Position numbers and translations under genes: made by a program
Sequence record: OZ035752.1
Length of the DNA: 41,072 nt
Strand: one strand, 5' to 3'
Origin: Kagunavirus LF7074P1
The notes under the pieces: model-generated
What the model was told of the DNA's origin: nothing
Database searches by the model: none
The model's input: the letters and a program-made list of their open reading frames with translations, nothing else
Shown here: piece after piece, positions 9,401 through 36,345 of the stretch
Layout of the letters: the number at the start of each line of letters is the position of its first letter
Position numbering within the stretch: the stretch's first letter is position 1

Positions 9401-10569
9401 ATATGGCTACAACTCCTTTTAAGGGCGCGAATACTGCGCAATTCTATGTGGCAGAAACTACCCCTGGCGTAACACCGACTAACCCGGTCTGGTCGCCATT
9501 GCGTAACACAGGTGGCGTTCCTGCCATTACCCGCGACACGCTGACCTCCAACGAACTGGACGGCAGCCGTGAAACTACGTCAATCCGCACCGGTAACAAG
9601 CAGGTTAGCGGAGAATACGCTATTGAGCTTAGCTCGAAAAGCCAGGACGACTGGCTGGCGGGTGCTTTAGGCTCTACATGGCAATCCGGTAGTTCTCTGA
9701 CCGGGCTATCAATTACCGTCGCGCCTGCAGGCAAGACCTTTACCCGTGCCGAAGGTAGCTTTATTTCTGACGGCGTTGAAGTGGGCGACCTGATTGCGTT
9801 TACCGACTTAACCGGTGACAACGCAAAACCGTTTATCGTAACTGCAGTAGAGGCGCTGGTAGTGACCGGGGCGGGTATCCAGCATACCCTGACCACAGAG
9901 ACAGTAACTACCGCCGCTAAGACAGGGGATAAACTGGAAACGGGAAGCCAGTGCAAGACGTTCTCTATTCTCACCTGGTACAAAGGCCAGTGCGGCGGGA
10001 CTGACGCGTACACACTAACCAAAGGCGTGGAAGTTTCTGGTTTTACCATCGAACAGGCTGTTAACGCTATGGTAACTGGCAGCTTCCCGTTCATCGGTCG
10101 CAGTCAGGAGATTCTCACCACGCAGCCGTCTGGTTCTGATTTCTCCTCTGTTACGTTTGGTGACGAGCCATTCTCCTCGGTCGATGTTTCTGTGTTCGAC
10201 GGTTCTACGCCGTTGCGTTGCGACAGCCTGACCATCACCAACGACAACAGCGCGTCCGCACAGTTCGAACTCGGCAACACTAACGTAGCGTTTGTGGAGC
10301 GTAGCCGAGCAGCTAACACCTTCTCCATCTCCGGTAAGCTGTACGACATGGCGATGATTCAGAAGTTTATCAACGAGCAGCAGGTGGAGATTAACTCTAT
10401 TCTGGCTGGGGTAAACGGGGCTATGTCTTTCAGTTTGAAACGTGCAGAACTTACGGCGGTTACACCTGAGATTGGAGGACCTGAGTCAATCACTCAGTCT
10501 ATTGAAGGCCAGGCTACTGGCAACCAGTACCAGTCGTCTATTGTTATTCAGCGTATCACATACGCATAA
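9397..10569 (+). CDS. major tail protein (putative)
   Basis: 390 aa; RBS AAGAGG; last plus-strand gene before chaperone/tape-measure block; followed by strong terminator. Confidence 0.5.
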   Translation: MNMATTPFKGANTAQFYVAETTPGVTPTNPVWSPLRNTGGVPAITRDTLTSNELDGSRETTSIRTGNKQVSGEYAIELSSKSQDDWLAGALGSTWQSGSSLTGLSITVAPAGKTFTRAEGSFISDGVEVGDLIAFTDLTGDNAKPFIVTAVEALVVTGAGIQHTLTTETVTTAAKTGDKLETGSQCKTFSILTWYKGQCGGTDAYTLTKGVEVSGFTIEQAVNAMVTGSFPFIGRSQEILTTQPSGSDFSSVTFGDEPFSSVDVSVFDGSTPLRCDSLTITNDNSASAQFELGNTNVAFVERSRAANTFSISGKLYDMAMIQKFINEQQVEINSILAGVNGAMSFSLKRAELTAVTPEIGGPESITQSIEGQATGNQYQSSIVIQRITYA

Positions 10570-10573
10570 AACT

Positions 10574-10600
10574 AAGGCCCCGTTTGGGGCCTTTTTTTTT
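10574..10600. terminator. bidirectional intrinsic terminator
   Basis: AAGGCCCC-GTTT-GGGGCCTT stem-loop followed by T9; between convergent genes; exact reverse-complement copy at 23108-23127. Confidence 0.8.
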
Positions 10601-13016: not shown

Positions 13017-13031
13017 TGTTGGTGTAAGTGA

Positions 13032-13060
13032 ATAGTACCCTATTATATTGGGGTGTGCAA
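13032..13060 (-). promoter_or_regulatory. sigma70-like promoter with palindromic operator
   Basis: minus-strand TTGCAC-17 bp-TACTAT; operator AATAG-N4-CTATT at 13031-13044; near-identical to plus-strand promoter at 35040-35068. Confidence 0.55.
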
Positions 13061-13168
13061 GTAATGTGATAGAATAAGTTTGCGCCTAGTGTCGCACACG
13101 AAAAGCGGGTGGTTCCCGTCTGGCGCATTTATCGTTAACCTGTAACCTCTTAACCAAAGGATTAAAGA

Positions 13169-25429: not shown

Positions 25430-25717
25430 TTAACTATAATAGCCCGCTATTAGGTCGTCAACCTGTTTAAACGAACCAACGACAAAAACATTTGCACCAC
25501 GTTTACGCATCCGCTCGTGCTCTCGTAACTGGTGCGGGTCCGGCTTCGTGTTTTCGTCTTTCTTAACCTCGACGAACCAGATGATGCCACCAGGGAGAAT
25601 TACCAGCAGGTCGGGGGCGCCCGCTCTATTTTCGTACGACAATTTGCGTACGAGGCCTCCCAGGGCCTCGAATCGCTCTTTTGCGTATTTCTGCACGCGC
25701 CCCTCAGGCGTACTCAT
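25430..25717 (-). CDS. VRR-NUC domain nuclease (putative)
   Basis: 95 aa; PD-(D/E)xK-type residues in APDLLVI..FVEVKK. Confidence 0.6.
   Translation of the reverse strand: MSTPEGRVQKYAKERFEALGGLVRKLSYENRAGAPDLLVILPGGIIWFVEVKKDENTKPDPHQLREHERMRKRGANVFVVGSFKQVDDLIAGYYS
25433..25461 (-). promoter_or_regulatory. sigma70-like promoter with palindromic operator
   Basis: minus-strand TTGACG-17 bp-TATAGT; operator AATAG-N4-CTATT at 25438-25451; overlaps 3' end of VRR-NUC gene. Confidence 0.5.
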
Positions 25718-28855: not shown

Positions 28856-28920
28856 AGTTCAGCCCTCATTAAGTTTAGATTTTCAGTTTACTCCGGGAAG
28901 CTGCCCGGCCAGTGATTAGA

Positions 28921-28949
28921 ACTATAATAGCTAACTATTCAGGTGTCAA
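28921..28949 (-). promoter_or_regulatory. sigma70-like promoter with palindromic operator
   Basis: minus-strand TTGACA-17 bp-TATAGT; operator AATAG-N4-CTATT at 28926-28939. Confidence 0.55.
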
Positions 28950-28953
28950 CACT

Positions 28954-30225
28954 TTATTCTAAATCGTCTTCACTTACCTGATTCCACTCAGGCCGTTTAT
29001 CATCTGCCGTTGCGACACATGGTGTGCCGTGGTTACGAGTTACGTGTTTCTCCAGCGCAGCCCATAGCTCTGAGCCCTTATGCTGCTTCTCAGCCTCGGT
29101 CGGGGACATTAGGACTTCTTTATGGAGCATTTCGACACCAAGCTCAAATCGAGACAGGGTGTCCATAAGCGCCTGCTTATCTTTCCACGCGCGATTTCCT
29201 GGGCGGCCCTCAACCAGCTTGTACCCCGGCACTTTCTTACCGGAATGCAATGCGGCGGTCATCGCTTTCTCAACCTTGTCGATGTGCTGGCGTAACAGCG
29301 GCAACTTCTCATACTCAACTACGAGTTGCTCCGTCGTCAGTTCCAGCGCAAAGTCGTCTTCCAGTTCTTCCGCCAGTACAGAATTAACCGTCTTTGTACG
29401 TGCGGCACACTGTTCAGAGAACCGGCACCACTGGCAACCATCGACCGACGGTTTAAAGTCCGACGCTTTCAGGTTCTTCTTTCCACGGAAATAAGCATCA
29501 AGCGCTAACAGTGCCCGTTTCTGTGCGAACTTAGCGAACAGTTCCAGACCTTCGACAGAGATGTCCCACTCTGACGCACCCCCTGCGTACGGCTGGAAGA
29601 TGACCAGGCGCACTACTGTGATGTTATAACGTCTCTTGAGTCGGCGATAAACACCGAGAGCGTAAAGCATAAGCTGTTTGTTTTCTTTCGCTTCGACACG
29701 ATGTCGTCCTGTTTTCAGGTCGCCAATAATGAGCATGTGCTCGTCGGTGTTCGCCAGTTCCTGAACGGCAACAATGTCGGCGGTTCCGAATGTCTCAACG
29801 CCTTCGTAGCCTGGATGCAATACCTCAGTAAGATTGACACGCATCTCGAGTTTGGCGTAAGTCGCCACGTCTATAATCGCCTTGCAGTAGTCGGTATACT
29901 TGCGCACCTGCTCAATCATGTCAGCCGTGATTAGTACAGCGCCTTTCATCGGACTAATTAGCGCCTTAATCTGGCCTTTACCCTCGTCCAGCACGTAAGC
30001 ACCGACTTCACGCTCTAACGGCAGCGCAGTGCCTTTGATGTACTGGTTAAGGTGCATCTCAGCTATGGTGTGGCACGCAGTACCTGTAACGGCGGCTTTA
30101 CCAGACGTGTTGGGAATATCTTTTTCACAGGCCAGTGACGCGGCGCAGCTTAGCCACTTTTTAGCGCCTGATGGTGACAGTAAGGCGTGCACATCATTAT
30201 TGCCGCCACGTTCTTTTAGAATCAT
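28954..30225 (-). CDS. PD-(D/E)xK exonuclease with C-terminal Cys cluster (DUF2800/Cas4-like)
   Basis: 423 aa; IGDLKTG; C-terminal CQWCRFSEQC. Confidence 0.65.
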   Translation of the reverse strand: MILKERGGNNDVHALLSPSGAKKWLSCAASLACEKDIPNTSGKAAVTGTACHTIAEMHLNQYIKGTALPLEREVGAYVLDEGKGQIKALISPMKGAVLITADMIEQVRKYTDYCKAIIDVATYAKLEMRVNLTEVLHPGYEGVETFGTADIVAVQELANTDEHMLIIGDLKTGRHRVEAKENKQLMLYALGVYRRLKRRYNITVVRLVIFQPYAGGASEWDISVEGLELFAKFAQKRALLALDAYFRGKKNLKASDFKPSVDGCQWCRFSEQCAARTKTVNSVLAEELEDDFALELTTEQLVVEYEKLPLLRQHIDKVEKAMTAALHSGKKVPGYKLVEGRPGNRAWKDKQALMDTLSRFELGVEMLHKEVLMSPTEAEKQHKGSELWAALEKHVTRNHGTPCVATADDKRPEWNQVSEDDLE

Positions 30226-31391: not shown

Positions 31392-31422
31392 TATTTATTC
31401 TCCTCTCGTTTGGTATGGGCTA

Positions 31423-31451
31423 ACTATAATAGCGAACTATTCACTTGTCAA
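31423..31451 (-). promoter_or_regulatory. sigma70-like promoter with palindromic operator
   Basis: minus-strand TTGACA-17 bp-TATAGT; operator AATAG-N4-CTATT at 31428-31441. Confidence 0.55.
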
Positions 31452-31470
31452 TGGGCTTTTCTAAAATAAT

Positions 31471-31484
31471 TAATATGGTACTAT
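31471..31484 (+). promoter_or_regulatory. extended -10 promoter-like element
   Basis: TGgTACTAT with operator-like AATAT-N4-CTATT; about 30 nt upstream of HTH gene. Confidence 0.35.
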
Positions 31485-31515
31485 TCACATATCAACTGAC
31501 TAAGGAGTAATTGAC

Positions 31516-31748: not shown

Positions 31749-33956
31749 CTATTCCAAATCCTCTTCTGTCACCACCAGCATTTCATTCGGTTCGTATATT
31801 GTCTTCGGTCTTAGTCTATCCCCTATTCTTTCAGGTATACGATACGTTCTCGGTACTACTTCGCCATTAGCATCACAGCCTAGCATTAGTTCACCATCTT
31901 TCAGCATTTTATCAAGATGGGTGTTAGTCACAGAAAAGTCACCGGAACGGGCCACTATCTGCTGCTGAGTAAAACCGCGACCTGTGTCATCTGACTGTTG
32001 CAGGTCTTCCAGTGCCGAAAGTATCGACTCCTTCCTTACTTCATCCCTGCCGCGTTTAACTTCTTCCTTTACTTTTTGTTTACCTTCGTTAGTTAACCCT
32101 TCTTCCCGCTCTTTCTCCTCGTCAGTTTTGAACGGCTCGAAGCCCCACGGCATCAGAACAAGCGCCTTGTGTGGTTCCGGCAGGTCGAGGTTTACGATTG
32201 TGCCGTATTCCTCTGTGCTGCCCAAGAACTCAACAGCACGGTACTCTTTCGGCGGTGGTGCTTCACGGAACTGTACAGACTCAAGTACCATGCCAACCGT
32301 TTTCTGTTGAGGCCCGTGCTTAAATTTCGAGTGGTATACGTTTATCTGACGGTCGGTTGCACGTTCTATTGTCAGTTCCACATCGACACCCGCATACAGC
32401 GCCCCGCTGCCACGGGCTTTCTTTCCGCCCTTCGGTGTATGGTGGACGACGCCCACCGCGGCTTTAGTTGCGTCACGTACTTCTTTAAGGATGGCGATAA
32501 CTTTACCCATGCCGATTGCCGTTGATGAACTGTTCTCGTCGAACTTATCAATCGTCATGGCCAGTGTCTGGTTAAGGGTGTCGAACGCAACCATCCCAAT
32601 TGGCTCGTCACCCGCAGTTTCTCGCATTAGCTTAATCAGGCTTTTCAGTTTGCCAACTTCGCCCATATCGATGACATGTACATAATCTTTACCTTCCTCG
32701 CCGTATTTAGCCGCGAGTGCATCAATACGGGTGCGTGTGGCAGCACCGCCCTCACCGTCAATATAGAAATGGTGGCAACGCTGTGTATCAGCGCCTGCAA
32801 ACCGGTACCCGGCGGCGCTCAGGTACATCATACCCAGCGTATAGAATGATTTATATGTGCCGGATTCCCCGACGATGTCCCAGATGCAATCCGACGGCAT
32901 GTACCCTTCAACGACGAAATCAGCCTTTACCGGTTCAGGTAACTCGTCATCGTCTTCAAGGTCTTCCAGTGTACAAGTTACAGGCTCCTCGTTCTCTGTG
33001 CGGTGCAGTTCTTCAATCTCTTCATCCGGTAAATCAGGCAGAGCCGCACGAATGCTGTTAATACTGATAGGTTGCTTGTCTACGTTAAGCTCGTCCGGAA
33101 GGCCGCACATACGCAGGGCCAAATGTTGTCGGCGGTTAAGCTCAGTGCAAGCACCGTTGTTTGTGTGCTGGCACACGAAGCGCACTTCTTTACCGTCGAG
33201 CATGATGCTGGTGGAGCCTTTGCCGGTGTGCAGGTGTTCGTTAGGGCAAGGCACTTCGTACCCGCGACCGGAAGATAAAGCGTCAAGGCCAAGCTCCGCT
33301 TCGCAGAAATGCGCTATATCCGCGTTAAGCCCATGCTCATCGGCAGCAAGGGTCTTAGCTTCACGCTTACGCAACCCCATTTCTTCGGCTTTCTTGATGT
33401 ACCGCTCGGCACGGATAACACGCCCTTCTGTAACCGTTATCTTCGACTCTTTATGCGGCAGGTAGATAAGGCGGTTGCCATCTTCTGTGCAGTGGTCGCG
33501 CAATGCTTCGTCTATTTCTAACTCAGCACAAATAGCACGTTGCACCATCCACGCGTCGTTAGAGTTAAACGGCGTGCGGGCCGGTACAAGAACGCGGAAA
33601 GCGTAGTCACCGTTTTTACACGCGTGCTGGTGCGACGCCGTTGTGTGCAGAATATTGAAGAACGGCGCGTTCTTGAATTTGCGGGTGAGGTCGCGGTACT
33701 GGGTACGGTTTAGATGGTCGAAATCGAACTTAACCACACTGTCTTCCAGAATCGCGTTCTTACGGCGACCGCCAACCGGCGCAATAGCTTTCTGCTTAAT
33801 CTTGGCCGCGTCGTACTCTTCCTTAGTCCATGACGGGTCTACGGACAGACGCTTCGATGTATCGCAGACATACTCTACAAACTGCTCCAGTGGCATTTCA
33901 CGGGCTACCGGGTTTTTATCGAAAGTGTTACGCAGCGTTGCAAAAACAATATTCAT
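31749..33956 (-). CDS. primase-polymerase / helicase (AEP-like N-terminus, Cys cluster, P-loop ATPase)
   Basis: 735 aa; VVKFDFDH (hhhDxD-like); CPNEH..C..H..C cluster; Walker A GESGTYKS. Confidence 0.65.
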   Translation of the reverse strand: MNIVFATLRNTFDKNPVAREMPLEQFVEYVCDTSKRLSVDPSWTKEEYDAAKIKQKAIAPVGGRRKNAILEDSVVKFDFDHLNRTQYRDLTRKFKNAPFFNILHTTASHQHACKNGDYAFRVLVPARTPFNSNDAWMVQRAICAELEIDEALRDHCTEDGNRLIYLPHKESKITVTEGRVIRAERYIKKAEEMGLRKREAKTLAADEHGLNADIAHFCEAELGLDALSSGRGYEVPCPNEHLHTGKGSTSIMLDGKEVRFVCQHTNNGACTELNRRQHLALRMCGLPDELNVDKQPISINSIRAALPDLPDEEIEELHRTENEEPVTCTLEDLEDDDELPEPVKADFVVEGYMPSDCIWDIVGESGTYKSFYTLGMMYLSAAGYRFAGADTQRCHHFYIDGEGGAATRTRIDALAAKYGEEGKDYVHVIDMGEVGKLKSLIKLMRETAGDEPIGMVAFDTLNQTLAMTIDKFDENSSSTAIGMGKVIAILKEVRDATKAAVGVVHHTPKGGKKARGSGALYAGVDVELTIERATDRQINVYHSKFKHGPQQKTVGMVLESVQFREAPPPKEYRAVEFLGSTEEYGTIVNLDLPEPHKALVLMPWGFEPFKTDEEKEREEGLTNEGKQKVKEEVKRGRDEVRKESILSALEDLQQSDDTGRGFTQQQIVARSGDFSVTNTHLDKMLKDGELMLGCDANGEVVPRTYRIPERIGDRLRPKTIYEPNEMLVVTEEDLE

Positions 33957-34081: not shown

Positions 34082-34150
34082 TGTATAATCCTTGTGCTTA
34101 CTTTGATGATTTGTGCTTCGGCCCCGACGTTCTAGCGTTGGGGTTTCTTT

Positions 34151-34441
34151 TTACCGTTTAGCCAACTCTTCCAGCAAATTTTTATACTCTTCAAAATATT
34201 CCTCGACCAAATCATCGCCGAAATAGAAGTCGATATACTCGAGATTATCTCTTACGTTAAGCGACGCAGACATGGTGCTTAGTTGGCGTAAGCTAATTAG
34301 CTTCATTTCTGTTTCTACACAGAAAGGCCGGTAGGTATCGAGGTGGCAAGAGATGTTGAAGCATAAAGCGAACTCTCCCGCCACGGAGTGAACCATATAC
34401 ACTTCGTTTTCTGCTTTATTGTGGAAAATTACACCTTTCAT
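34151..34441 (-). CDS. hypothetical protein (96 aa)
   Basis: ORF with ATGA overlap to upstream HTH gene. Confidence 0.5.
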   Translation of the reverse strand: MKGVIFHNKAENEVYMVHSVAGEFALCFNISCHLDTYRPFCVETEMKLISLRQLSTMSASLNVRDNLEYIDFYFGDDLVEEYFEEYKNLLEELAKR

Positions 34442-34620
34442 TTCACATTCTCCTTAATCCATTCTTCAACTTTATTACGGTCAAATGTACCTGGTAAACG
34501 GCGACCCATAACCTTAATACAACAATCAGGGAATTTACCACTGCGCAACCAGTTATTAATTGTCTGACGTGTTACCCCAATACGCTCGGCTACTTCATTC
34601 TGGGTCATGTAATGTTGCAT
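34438..34620 (-). CDS. small HTH DNA-binding protein (Cro/excisionase-like)
   Basis: 60 aa from ATG 34620 (RBS AGGAG 8 nt upstream); HTH VAERIGVTRQTINNWL; ORF-track start 34734 lacks RBS and would overlap promoters. Confidence 0.55.
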   Translation of the reverse strand: MQHYMTQNEVAERIGVTRQTINNWLRSGKFPDCCIKVMGRRLPGTFDRNKVEEWIKENVK

Positions 34621-34651
34621 TTTTATATCTCCTGTTTGTTTGGTGAAGCTG

Positions 34652-34680
34652 AGTATAGGATAGCGGGAATGTAAAAGCAA
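34652..34680 (-). promoter_or_regulatory. sigma70-like promoter (leftward early operon)
   Basis: minus-strand TTGCTT-17 bp-TATACT, about 30 nt upstream of HTH gene. Confidence 0.45.
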
Positions 34681-34717
34681 CCAATCCCTGCAATATTTAA
34701 TCTTTACAAAAAAGTTA

Positions 34718-34747
34718 TTGAAAGTTCTTGACACATGTTTGTATAAT
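34718..34747 (+). promoter_or_regulatory. sigma70-like promoter (rightward)
   Basis: TTGAAA-18 bp-TATAAT; divergent from 34652-34680. Confidence 0.55.
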
Positions 34748-34774
34748 GGTTTTGGGACTTGTATATATTACGGA

Positions 34775-34806
34775 GTTGACGAACCCTCCCTGAGGGATTC
34801 GTCAAC
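34775..34806 (+). other. long hairpin / inverted repeat in leader
   Basis: GTTGACGAA-CCCTC-cct-GAGGG-a-TTCGTCAAC, 14 bp stem with one bulge, about 20 nt after predicted start site. Confidence 0.6.
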
Positions 34807-34946
34807 CCCTCCCAGACAGCTGAGATGCTTGTTTTAGGGTTTAAGGATAAGTGTATCTAAATCTCATTTAAAGAAGTAACCCACTGAAATATCTACTGTT
34901 TCTTAATGTGCCGTAGATTCGCAACCGTAAAAATGTAACGATTATT

Positions 34947-34972
34947 GGGCAGGCTTAAGGCCTGCCCTTTAG
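34947..34972 (+). terminator. terminator-like hairpin
   Basis: GGGCAGGC-TTAAG-GCCTGCCC followed by TTTAGTT. Confidence 0.5.
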
Positions 34973-35039
34973 TTACCAAGTAATAAGAATAAAGGCACAA
35001 CCTTCCCCGAAGAATCACAACGGCAACGTAACTAATCTC

Positions 35040-35068
35040 TTGCACACCCCAACATAATAGGATACTAT
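35040..35068 (+). promoter_or_regulatory. sigma70-like promoter with palindromic operator
   Basis: TTGCAC-17 bp-TACTAT; operator AATAG-N4-CTATT at 35056-35069; leader AAACGAGACAGAGGAG. Confidence 0.55.
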
Positions 35069-35102
35069 TCACTTATCGAAACGAGACAGAGGAGTGAGGG
35101 TT

Positions 35103-35285
35103 ATGTTTAAGAATGGTCAGTTGGTGAAAACAAAGCGCAGCCGGCAACACGTAATAGTTACCAAAGACGAGGATGAATATGGTGTTGTCGCCGTATTTAG
35201 CCTTATACGGAGGAAACATGGTTATGTTCGTCACGATAATTTAGAACTCATCGGCAACAATTTTAAATTCAAAGGGGCGAAGTGA
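35103..35285 (+). CDS. hypothetical early protein (60 aa)
   Basis: ATG 35103 with RBS GGAG 8 nt upstream (track start 35094 is GTG). Confidence 0.5.
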   Translation: MFKNGQLVKTKRSRQHVIVTKDEDEYGVVAVFSLIRRKHGYVRHDNLELIGNNFKFKGAK

Positions 35286-36285: not shown

Positions 36286-36314
36286 TTGCACACTAAGATA
36301 GAATAGGCTACTAT
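36286..36314 (+). promoter_or_regulatory. sigma70-like promoter with palindromic operator
   Basis: TTGCAC-17 bp-TACTAT; operator GAATAG-N4-CTATTC at 36301-36316; leader AAACGAGAGGGGAG. Confidence 0.55.
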
Positions 36315-36345
36315 TCATTTACACAAACGAGAGGGGAGACAGAAT

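What the first reader, a model, noticed from the sequence alone, without database searches (positions are those of the whole stretch)
34718..34972. Second promoter-hairpin-terminator unit in the divergent early control region (candidate ncRNA, attenuator or origin)
The 470-bp region between divergent operons has a near-consensus plus-strand promoter (TTGAAA-18-TATAAT, 34718-34747), then a long hairpin about 20 nt downstream (34775-34806, 9 + 5 bp arms), then an 8-bp GC stem with weak T-tail (34947-34972), all before the next promoter (35040-35068) and first ORF (35103). No ORF longer than 11 codons with a start lies between. The 9-bp arms GTTGACGAA / TTCGTCAAC could equally be a DNA-level protein-binding site or part of a replication origin.
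Basis: seen in the sequence. Interest (0 to 1): 0.5.

Follow-up and report, generated by a model that had tools for sequence, protein, structure and literature searches.

The report
Conserved early non-coding RNA unit
Between the two divergent early operons of this E. coli phage (a Kagunavirus) lies a strong host-type promoter that appears to make a roughly 220-base structured RNA with no protein-coding role, ending at a terminator hairpin; about 100 bases at its 3' end are almost identical in hundreds of E. coli and Salmonella phages and have gone unannotated.

Summary
TTGAAA-18-TATAAT (34718-34747) is one of only three 11/12 sigma-70 matches in the 41-kb genome. The hairpin 34775-34806 folds far better than shuffles (z = -6.4). 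The stem 34947-34967 plus TTTAGTT is terminator-like.

The window is Kagunavirus LF7074P1 (Guernseyvirinae). The promoter and hairpin half occurs only in about 20 close relatives. The block 34899-35001, which holds the terminator, is 92-100% identical in Kagunavirus and Salmonella Jerseyvirus genomes that average 74% identity. It is the second most conserved 100 nt of the genome.

It is non-coding: relatives carry frameshifting indels, and no ORF is conserved. Other alleles of this intergenic region keep the same layout with unrelated sequence: a rightward promoter, a long 5' hairpin with compensatory changes and G.U pairs, and a GC-rich 3' hairpin.

Presence of the block does not track the primase-helicase or HTH allele, which weakens the origin and operator readings. 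There is no match in Rfam, E. coli genomes or plasmids.

Best reading: an early terminated leader or small RNA of unknown target. It is a new family of a known kind and no transcript data were available. Interest is moderate.

The parts
34652..34680 (-). Leftward promoter P_L for the HTH/primase-helicase operon (TTGCTT-17-TATACT), back to back with P_R
   Evidence: Read by eye (8/12). The homologous TTGATT-17-TATACT in K1ind1 and Salmonella phage K53 was flagged by the scan. AGTATA is conserved in the alleles aligned (A and B) and is also present in allele C.
34718..34747 (+). Rightward early promoter P_R (TTGAAA-18-TATAAT)
   Evidence: 11/12 match. One of 3 such sites in the window, against 0.4 expected. 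Annotated as a predicted host promoter in relative fBC-Eco01.
34754..34974 (+). Predicted non-coding transcript, about 220 nt (start and end inferred, not measured)
   Evidence: Start inferred at about 7 nt after the -10 hexamer, end at the T tract. The fold has z = -4.86. No conserved ORF. No Rfam family.
34775..34806 (+). 5' stem-loop (9+5 bp), specific to allele A
   Evidence: z = -6.4. Positional analogues in other alleles keep the fold with different sequence; their base stem is 100% paired with 2 of 5 pairs compensatory.
34884..34916 (+). Block X (AAATATCTA...TGCCGTAG), shared by otherwise unrelated alleles
   Evidence: Alignment of alleles A-D. TGCCGTA lies at the same distance and in the same orientation in all five representatives.
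34899..35001 (.). Near-invariant core
   Evidence: 92-100% identical in 25 loci from E. coli and Salmonella phages. Second most conserved 100-nt window against Salmonella phage f18SE, 96% against a 74% genome mean. 385 phage records match the query 34884-35040; most include the core, but some match only block Y.
34947..34974 (+). Terminator stem-loop (34947-34967) and weak T tract (34968-34974)
   Evidence: Flagged in the window and in relatives. 98% of cells paired, 2 of 9 pairs with compensatory changes, 5/500 shuffles as good. dG -18.3 kcal/mol.
34975..35001 (.). Conserved A+T-rich stretch beyond the terminator (CCAAGTAATAAGAATAAAGGCACAA)
   Evidence: Only 34977, 34979-80, 34986 and 34999-35000 vary among 31 sequences. 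A 3' end at the T tract does not explain this conservation.
35002..35016 (.). Variable linker prone to indels
   Evidence: Substitutions plus 9- and 10-nt deletions in relatives.
35017..35033 (.). Block Y (ACAACGGCAACGTAACT), conserved in all alleles, including those that lack the core
   Evidence: GTAACTAA (35028-35035) is an 8-nt perfect inverted repeat of TTAGTTAC (34969-34976).
35040..35068 (+). Promoter of the rightward genes (TTGCAC-17-TACTAT), carrying the palindrome AATAG-n4-CTATT (35056-35069)
   Evidence: One of about 7 copies of a repeated motif in the window. The same consensus was reported for fBC-Eco01 (PMC9825357).
35103..35285 (+). First ORF of the rightward operon (60 aa, function unknown)
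   Evidence: phrog_12538, unknown function.

Best explanation
Positions 34718-34974 are an early, host-RNA-polymerase-driven, non-coding transcription unit. It is the 'type A' allele of a unit present across Guernseyvirinae phages.

Proposed steps:
1. Sigma-70 RNA polymerase starts at P_R at about 34754-34757, right after infection.
2. The 5' stem-loop (34775-34806) forms and protects the 5' end.
3. Transcription runs through a mostly unpaired, nearly invariant segment (34899-34946).
4. It stops, at least partly, at the stem-loop and T tract 34947-34974. This releases an RNA of about 220 nt.

The unit therefore works as a terminated leader. It insulates the rightward small-gene operon, which has its own palindrome-bearing promoter at 35040-35068, from the strong early promoter. 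It also yields a small RNA whose invariant 3' domain acts on a factor shared by E. coli and Salmonella infections, either by base pairing or by binding a protein.

Shown here: the anatomy, the conservation, the absence of coding, and the structural covariation. Inferred: that the RNA is made, where it ends, and any action in trans.
For: - Promoter quality: 11/12, among the top 3 in the genome.
- The HTH gene on the other side of the same control region is an early gene in RNA-seq of a relative carrying this allele (PMC12645636).
- Non-coding: frameshifting 1-nt indels inside the core in 8 or more relatives, 9-10-nt indels, no 3-nt periodicity of substitutions, and the minus-strand ORF is broken or absent in Salmonella phages.
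- Same architecture with unrelated sequence in four alleles, each folding better than shuffles: z = -4.9, -3.6, -2.6 and -3.6.
- 5' hairpin in the type B alleles: the base stem is 100% paired, with 2 of 5 pairs compensatory (1/500 shuffles). The middle stem occurs in at least 5 different sequences that all give the same fold. Its G.U pairs would be C.A mismatches on the other strand.
- Terminator: compensatory A-U to G-C and C-G to U-A changes.
- Extreme conservation of 34899-35001 across genera.
- Presence of the core is independent of the primase-helicase and HTH alleles, as expected for an autonomous module.
Against: - No transcript data were available to me.
- The T tract is weak (UUUAGUU). 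Alleles C and D have the hairpin with a poorer T tract or none, so termination may be partial or not the shared function.
- Conservation continues about 35 nt beyond the terminator and into block Y. An RNA ending at the T tract does not explain that.
- No target was found. The phage genome holds no complementarity longer than chance, pairing with the HTH translation start is not significant, and E. coli genomes give no BLAST-detectable match.
- Invariant columns say nothing about structure in the core itself.
Confidence: 0.55

Rival explanations
1. Regulated attenuator. The unit is only a cis-acting leader. The hairpin at 34947-34967 is a checkpoint that a phage or host factor overrides (processive antitermination, as with lambda Q at tR'), so that P_R transcripts reach the rightward genes at a set time. 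The short RNA is a by-product.
For: The unit lies directly upstream of, and in the same orientation as, the rightward operon. The weak T tract suggests leaky termination. All alleles keep a strong hairpin at the same place, followed by the universally conserved block Y.
Against: The downstream genes have their own promoter 70 nt later. No alternative anti-terminator pairing is conserved between alleles (inspection). No antiterminator family was found among the 17 neighbouring proteins scanned, though all are small proteins of unknown function. About 100 nt of near-invariance is more than a terminator needs.
Confidence: 0.2
2. Replication origin. The conserved block (hairpin plus A+T-rich stretch, flanked by the inverted TGCCGT/ACGGCA and TTAGTTAC/GTAACTAA repeats) is where replication starts. 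Transcription from P_R either activates it or supplies the primer, as at the T7 primary origin or in ColE1.
For: It lies next to the primase-helicase operon. The cumulative GC skew has its minimum at 34-35 kb. Conservation covers DNA beyond the predicted RNA end. The hairpin is flanked by inverted repeats. A promoter reads into it.
Against: The GC-skew switch coincides with the switch in gene orientation, so it is not independent evidence. There are no iterons. The core does not co-vary with the initiator:
- SCS44 has the same primase N-terminal type and a 98% identical HTH but lacks the core.
- K1ind3 is 86% identical to K1ind1 in the primase-helicase but lacks the core.
- Salmonella phage f18SE is only 51-64% identical in that protein, yet keeps the core at 95-96%.
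The apparent excess of TGCCGTAG in the genome reflects a general excess of ACGGCA-containing words and is absent from f18SE. G.U pairs in the 5' hairpin point to RNA, not DNA.
Confidence: 0.12
3. DNA-level control region or recombination linker. The invariant stretches are binding sites for phage or host proteins that regulate the neighbouring promoters. Alternatively, they are conserved junctions kept uniform by frequent recombination between mosaic modules, with no function as RNA.
For: The region is clearly mosaic, with breakpoints at the edges of blocks X and Y. GTAAC/GTTAC occurs 4 times in 511 nt, against about 1 expected (my count). Conservation extends past the terminator.
Against: Phages sharing a 98% identical HTH protein differ in having the core. 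Compensatory changes in both hairpins show selection on pairing, not only on sequence. Several GTAAC copies are pairing partners within the long 5' hairpin of type B alleles.
Confidence: 0.1
4. A missed small protein gene. For example, the 59-aa minus-strand ORF 34893..35072, which some annotations call as a CDS, would explain the conservation.
For: The ORF exists. It is annotated in Bas71. It extends to 106-116 aa in some K1ind1-like phages.
Against: It is truncated, fragmented or absent in most Salmonella phages that keep the DNA at 92-97% identity. Relatives carry 1-nt indels inside it, and 9- and 10-nt indels as well. Substitutions show no codon periodicity (6/9/5 across the three positions). 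Its start codon lies inside the -10 region of the next promoter and has no good ribosome-binding site.
Confidence: 0.03

Closest known systems
Lambda PR'-6S RNA-tR' unit (short, constitutively made, terminated leader ahead of the late operon; from my own knowledge)
   Same: A strong host-type promoter, a non-coding transcript of about 200 nt, an intrinsic terminator, and then an operon in the same orientation.
   Different: No Q-like antiterminator or qut site was identified. The downstream genes have their own promoter. The conserved part here is the 3' domain of the RNA, not the promoter-proximal region.
Phage-encoded trans-acting small RNAs, such as lambda PreS/LPR1, which regulates dnaN (bioRxiv 10.1101/2024.10.31.621285); also small RNAs found by dRNA-seq or ONT-cappable-seq in virulent Pseudomonas phages (papers listed)
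   Same: An own promoter, a 5' hairpin, a conserved unpaired stretch next to a terminator hairpin, and no coding capacity.
   Different: No target and no Hfq or ProQ dependence is known. The U tail is short. There is no sequence or Rfam relationship. The conserved block is unusually long (about 100 nt) and extends past the terminator.
Transcription-activated or transcript-primed origins (T7 primary origin; ColE1 RNA II; from my own knowledge)
   Same: A promoter reading into a hairpin and an A+T-rich stretch beside replication genes; the GC-skew minimum falls here.
   Different: The block does not co-vary with the initiator. The A+T-rich stretch is only about 18 nt. There are no iterons. No experimental origin mapping exists for this phage group (nothing found).
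HK022 put RNAs (promoter-proximal stem-loops that make RNA polymerase resistant to terminators; from my own knowledge)
   Same: Structured RNA elements just downstream of an early promoter and upstream of a terminator.
   Different: There is no sequence or Rfam similarity. The promoter-proximal hairpin here is hypervariable in sequence, whereas put function depends on specific structure and sequence. Not tested further.

Membership tests
Intrinsic (Rho-independent) terminator | G+C-rich stem-loop | tested here: met
   9 pairs, 7 G-C, dG -18.3 kcal/mol. Compensatory changes at 2 of 9 pairs.
Intrinsic (Rho-independent) terminator | Run of U directly after the stem | tested here: inconclusive
   UUUAGUU meets the scan's rule of 5 T in 8 but is interrupted. 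Canonical terminators in the same genome end in an uninterrupted TTTT or TTTTT, e.g. 10566-10595. Alleles C and D have a poorer tract or none.
Hfq-type trans-acting small RNA | Own promoter and own terminator, non-coding | tested here: met
Hfq-type trans-acting small RNA | Conserved seed complementary to target mRNAs | tested here: inconclusive
   The conserved stretch exists. No complementarity above chance in the phage genome (longest 10 nt, shuffles give 10-11), none significant with the HTH translation start, and no BLAST-level match in E. coli. Short seeds against host mRNAs could not be tested.
Hfq-type trans-acting small RNA | Binding to Hfq or ProQ; 3' oligo-U tail | not testable with these tools
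   Needs RIL-seq, CLIP or co-immunoprecipitation.
Any Rfam family | Score at or above the family's gathering threshold | tested here: not met
   No hit in the window. Best sub-threshold match is Hrs12 at 22.6 bits against a threshold of 70, resting on the terminator only. No hit at E <= 1 in four other alleles.
Lambda-type Q-gated terminated leader | Short terminated transcript between a constitutive promoter and an operon | tested here: met
   Anatomy.
Lambda-type Q-gated terminated leader | Antiterminator protein encoded by the phage | tested here: not met
   No antiterminator family among 17 neighbouring proteins in Pfam or PHROGs. Only the neighbourhood was scanned, not the whole proteome.
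Replication origin | Iterons or initiator-binding repeats | tested here: not met
   The only direct repeats in 34600-35110 are six two-copy pairs of 8-22 nt; there are no arrays.
Replication origin | Co-variation of origin sequence with the initiator protein | tested here: not met
   together.
Replication origin | Strand-composition switch at the site | tested here: inconclusive
   The cumulative GC-skew minimum is at 34-35 kb, but it coincides with the switch in gene orientation.
Protein-coding gene | Reading frame kept intact across relatives | tested here: not met

The most novel reading that the evidence does not exclude
The nearly invariant 100-nt 3' domain is the working part of a previously unrecognised early phage riboregulator. 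It would act on a component shared by E. coli and Salmonella, for example by sequestering an RNA chaperone or nuclease, regulating a host mRNA, or neutralising a defence system. That would explain why it is held almost unchanged across two phage genera while everything around it is reshuffled.
Probability: 0.2. Interest if true: 0.7.

Novelty: new member of a known kind. Interest (0 to 1): 0.45.

Why it matters
Kagunavirus and Jerseyvirus phages are among those most often isolated for E. coli and Salmonella therapy and food biocontrol. Some, such as CM001, serve as engineering chassis.

The second most conserved 100 nt of their genome is unannotated in most of the listed records among the 385 public genomes that match the region. 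It sits in the early control region, directly behind one of the three best host-type promoters.

If the RNA is made, it is a compact, testable candidate for an early phage riboregulator. It also has natural 'allelic replacements' (types C and D) available for comparison. If the element instead acts as DNA, it marks the control or replication centre of the group. Either way, genome engineers should avoid disrupting it, and annotators should stop calling the spurious ORFs that lie over it.

Tried and rejected
1. Known RNA family. None found in the window or in four other alleles. No tRNA or tmRNA.

2. Host-derived sequence or long antisense to the host. No E. coli match, even at E <= 10. No meaningful plasmid match. 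Absent from GTDB genomes, apart from one contig of 18,987 bp, probably from a phage, in a Taishania assembly.

3. Antisense to the phage's own genes. The longest complementarity is 10 nt, as in shuffles. A first attempt with RNAduplex over the whole genome timed out.

4. Pairing with the HTH translation start. Not significant in any allele. The 14/16 complementarity of 34889-34904 to the HTH ribosome-binding region (repeat D2) exists only in allele A.

5. TGCCGTAG as a primase or orientation signal. It occurs 9 times against 1.5 expected, and always as CTACGGCA on the sense strand of genes. However, it belongs to a general excess of ACGGCA-containing words. A fifth-order Markov model expects 6.6 copies, and the motif is not enriched in f18SE. 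Rejected.

6. RfaH ops, boxA/nut and CRISPR-repeat mimicry. Considered from memory because of TGCCGTAG and TTTCTTAA. The similarities are partial (6/8 and 7/13) and are not kept in allele D. Not pursued.

7. Genome end (cos or pac). One deposited genome (horsemountain) starts inside the core. Published analyses of this phage group report either no defined termini (Kagunavirus fBC-Eco01) or permuted, headful-type packaging in Salmonella phages, so that start is arbitrary.

8. A partner gene found by comparing K1ind1 (core present) with K1ind3 (core absent). The difference lies inside a replaced segment of about 1.7 kb that also holds the HTH gene and small ORFs. No specific candidate emerged, and I did not extend the comparison.

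9. Literature. I found no description of a non-coding RNA or an origin for this group. The fBC-Eco01 record and paper list a software-predicted promoter and terminator here without interpreting them.

Full report
**Identity and setting.** The window is Kagunavirus LF7074P1 (OZ035758.1, 100% identity), a virulent siphovirus of the subfamily Guernseyvirinae. The finding lies in the roughly 480-bp gap between two divergent operons. The leftward operon encodes an HTH_17/excisionase-type protein (34438..34620), two small ORFs and a 735-aa primase-helicase with an AAA_25 domain (31749..33956). The rightward operon is a run of small ORFs of unknown function starting at 35103.

- The promoter TTGAAA-18-TATAAT at 34718-34747 scores 11/12. 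Only three sites in the 41-kb window score that high, against 0.4 expected.
- The hairpin 34775-34806 (9+5 bp) folds with z = -6.4.
- GGGCAGGCTTAAGGCCTGCCC (34947-34967) followed by TTTAGTT passes the terminator scan at -18.3 kcal/mol.
- The predicted transcript 34754-34975 folds with z = -4.86.
- By eye there is also a leftward promoter, TTGCTT-17-TATACT (34652-34680, minus strand), back to back with P_R. Its counterpart in relatives was flagged by the scan.
Mechanical ORFs of 33, 39 and 59 aa overlap the unit, and two of them are annotated as CDS in a BASEL phage.

**What comparison shows.** A BLAST search against 50,697 phage records finds 392 matching records, but the match is split.
- The left part (34600-34883, holding P_R and the hairpin) occurs only in about 20 close Kagunavirus relatives.
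- The right part, from 34884 on, occurs in E. coli Kagunavirus and Salmonella Jerseyvirus alike, and almost always has no annotation under it.
- In 25 loci the block 34899-35001 is 92-100% identical.
- Against the complete genome of Salmonella phage f18SE, the two genomes align over 62% of their length at 74% identity. This block is 96% identical. That makes it the second most conserved 100-nt window of the genome, within the top 0.5%.
- Outside this phage group it is absent from 5,426 E. coli genomes, from plasmids and from one genome per GTDB species. The single exception is a contig of 18,987 bp, probably from a phage.

**It is not a gene for a protein.** Within the block, relatives carry a 1-nt deletion in the A run at 34929 (8 of 31 sequences), a 1-nt insertion in the stem, a 1-nt deletion in the T run, and 9-10-nt indels just downstream. 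The 20 variable positions fall 6/9/5 across the three codon positions. The 59-aa minus-strand ORF is truncated, fragmented or missing in the Salmonella phages that keep the DNA.

**The unit is an architecture with several alleles.** Aligning the intergenic regions defines at least four alleles.
- A (this window).
- B (K1ind1-like and all Salmonella phages sampled): TTGACA-17-TAAGGT or TAAGTT.
- C (SCS44, RP180): TTGACT-17-TAAGCT, a (CTCA)n run, and the hairpin GGTGCCTTCGGCACC.
- D (K1ind3): TTGACA-16-TAAAAT, 11/12, and the hairpin GGGTGGGCTAACGCCCACCC.

Every allele has the same layout: a rightward sigma-70-like promoter at the same place, 220-290 nt that fold better than shuffles (z = -4.9, -3.6, -2.6, -3.6), a short shared block X ending in TGCCGTA at a constant distance, a strong G+C-rich hairpin, and block Y (ACAACGGCAACGTAACT) in front of the next promoter. 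Alleles A and B share the invariant core. Alleles C and D have other sequence in its place.

**Evidence for structure.** In allele B the promoter-proximal element is a long irregular hairpin.
- Its base stem (GURAR/YUYAC) is paired in 100% of cells, with compensatory changes at 2 of 5 pairs (1/500 shuffles as good).
- Its middle stem occurs in at least five unrelated sequences, including CCGCC/GGCGG, UGUUUAACCC/GGGUUAAACA, CGCUUAA/UUAAGCG and CUUAGCG/CGUUAAG. All give the same fold.
- The lower extension also differs between E. coli and Salmonella versions while staying paired.
- The Salmonella versions contain G.U pairs that would be C.A mismatches on the opposite strand. Together with promoter orientation and the side on which the T tract lies, this points to a plus-strand RNA.
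Within allele A only its loop varies.
- The terminator stem shows A-U to G-C and C-G to U-A double changes, one G.U and one A.C intermediate. 98% of cells are paired and 5/500 shuffles do as well.
- The rest of the core is too invariant to say anything about structure.

**Weighing the mechanisms.** The anatomy is that of an early terminated leader or small RNA. Two facts do not fit a simple small RNA. Conservation continues for about 35 nt past the T tract and resumes in block Y. The T tract is weak, and poorer or missing in alleles C and D.

I therefore tested the DNA-level alternatives.
- The cumulative GC skew has its minimum exactly here, but gene orientation switches here too.
- There are no iterons.
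- The primase-helicase is itself mosaic. Its N-terminal domain comes in two types (A = C; B = D, similar to the Salmonella type). Its helicase half is 91% identical between A and B, 78% between A and D, and 32% between C and B or D.
- Presence of the core follows neither half, and it does not follow the HTH protein, which is 98% identical between A and C.

This independence argues against an origin or operator set recognised specifically by these proteins. It does not exclude an origin that needs no sequence-specific initiator.

No target for a trans-acting RNA emerged. No antiterminator was recognised nearby.

**Verdict.** The best-supported reading is an early, non-coding, structured transcript that ends at a leaky intrinsic terminator. 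It acts as a leader that separates the strong early promoter from the rightward genes, and its invariant 3' domain probably has a further function that I could not identify (confidence 0.55). Rival readings are a regulated attenuator (0.2), an origin (0.12), a DNA control site or recombination linker (0.1) and a small protein gene (0.03).

I found no published description. One relative's record lists a software-predicted promoter and terminator here, without comment. The only RNA-seq study of a relative analysed annotated genes only. The element is a new family of a known kind. Its interest is moderate and rests mainly on the exceptional conservation and on how easily it can be tested.

Noticed in passing
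window 13025-13061 (-), 25432-25475, 28920-28963, 31422-31465, 31470-31493, 35040-35077, 36302-36317: A repeated promoter motif carries the palindrome AATAG-n4-CTATT. At 28921-28949 and 31423-31451 it sits in the spacer of perfect TTGACA-17-TATAGT promoters on the minus strand. At 35040 and 13061 it overlaps TTGCAC-17-TACTAT. The fBC-Eco01 paper ascribes the same consensus to a phage RNA polymerase, but I saw no RNA-polymerase gene in the partial gene lists and annotations I looked at (the whole proteome was not scanned). It looks more like an operator for a phage regulator inside host-type promoters.
   Followed up: partly
window 31749-33956 (-) compared with L149, L150, L151, L148: The primase-helicase is a mosaic of two exchangeable halves, with a breakpoint near residue 340. 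The N-terminal (primase-like, FDFDH motif) type of this phage is shared with SCS44. The helicase half is 91% identical to K1ind1, whose N-terminal half is almost unrelated.
   Followed up: partly
window 34704-34805 (-) and 34893-35072 (-): Two small minus-strand ORFs over the non-coding unit are annotated as hypothetical proteins in BASEL phage Bas71 (Bas71_0054 and Bas71_0055). Relatives break the 59-aa ORF, and the other occurs only in allele A, so both are probably spurious calls.
   Followed up: yes
L142 about 1120-1147 (SCS44) and L144 about 1131-1145 (RP180): Allele C holds a (CTCA)n microsatellite just before its 3' hairpin, with about 6-7 units in SCS44 and about 3 in RP180. CTCACTC is complementary to the GAGTGAG of the ribosome-binding region of the first rightward ORF (window 35092-35098).
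   Followed up: no
window 34625-34640 and 34889-34904; 34782-34791 and 35093-35102: In allele A only, block X of the RNA is 14/16 complementary to the Shine-Dalgarno region of the HTH mRNA. The 5' arm of the first hairpin is 9/10 complementary to the ribosome-binding site of the ORF at 35103. Neither pairing is conserved in other alleles, and the duplex test was not significant.
   Followed up: partly
whole window: Words containing ACGGCA are strongly over-represented: CAACGGCA occurs 16 times against 2.6 expected, ACGGCAAC 17 against 3.2, and CTACGGCA 9 against 1.9. The gene-borne copies of CTACGGCA are all on the sense strand, in all three frames. Salmonella phage f18SE does not show this for CTACGGCA. 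The cause is unknown and may be compositional.
   Followed up: partly
L137 918-1918 (Salmonella phage Ent3), L002, L005: Salmonella Jerseyviruses have up to 1 kb with no annotated gene to the right of the HTH gene. After the core and block Y comes further conserved sequence with another strong hairpin (GCACTTGCCTTACGGCAAGCGC). This may mean more than one non-coding unit.
   Followed up: no
window 34120-34145: A stem-loop between the small ORFs of the leftward operon was flagged as terminator-like on the plus strand. In fBC-Eco01 the equivalent site is annotated as a terminator on both strands. It may attenuate transcription before the primase-helicase gene.
   Followed up: no
whole window: The cumulative GC skew peaks near 23 kb and bottoms at 34-35 kb. 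These are exactly the convergent and divergent points of gene orientation.
   Followed up: partly
L173 (Taishania pollutisoli CZZ-1 scaffold22, 18,987 bp): This is the only GTDB genome contig with the full core (95% identity). It is probably a Guernseyvirinae phage contig carried in a Bacteroidota assembly.
   Followed up: no
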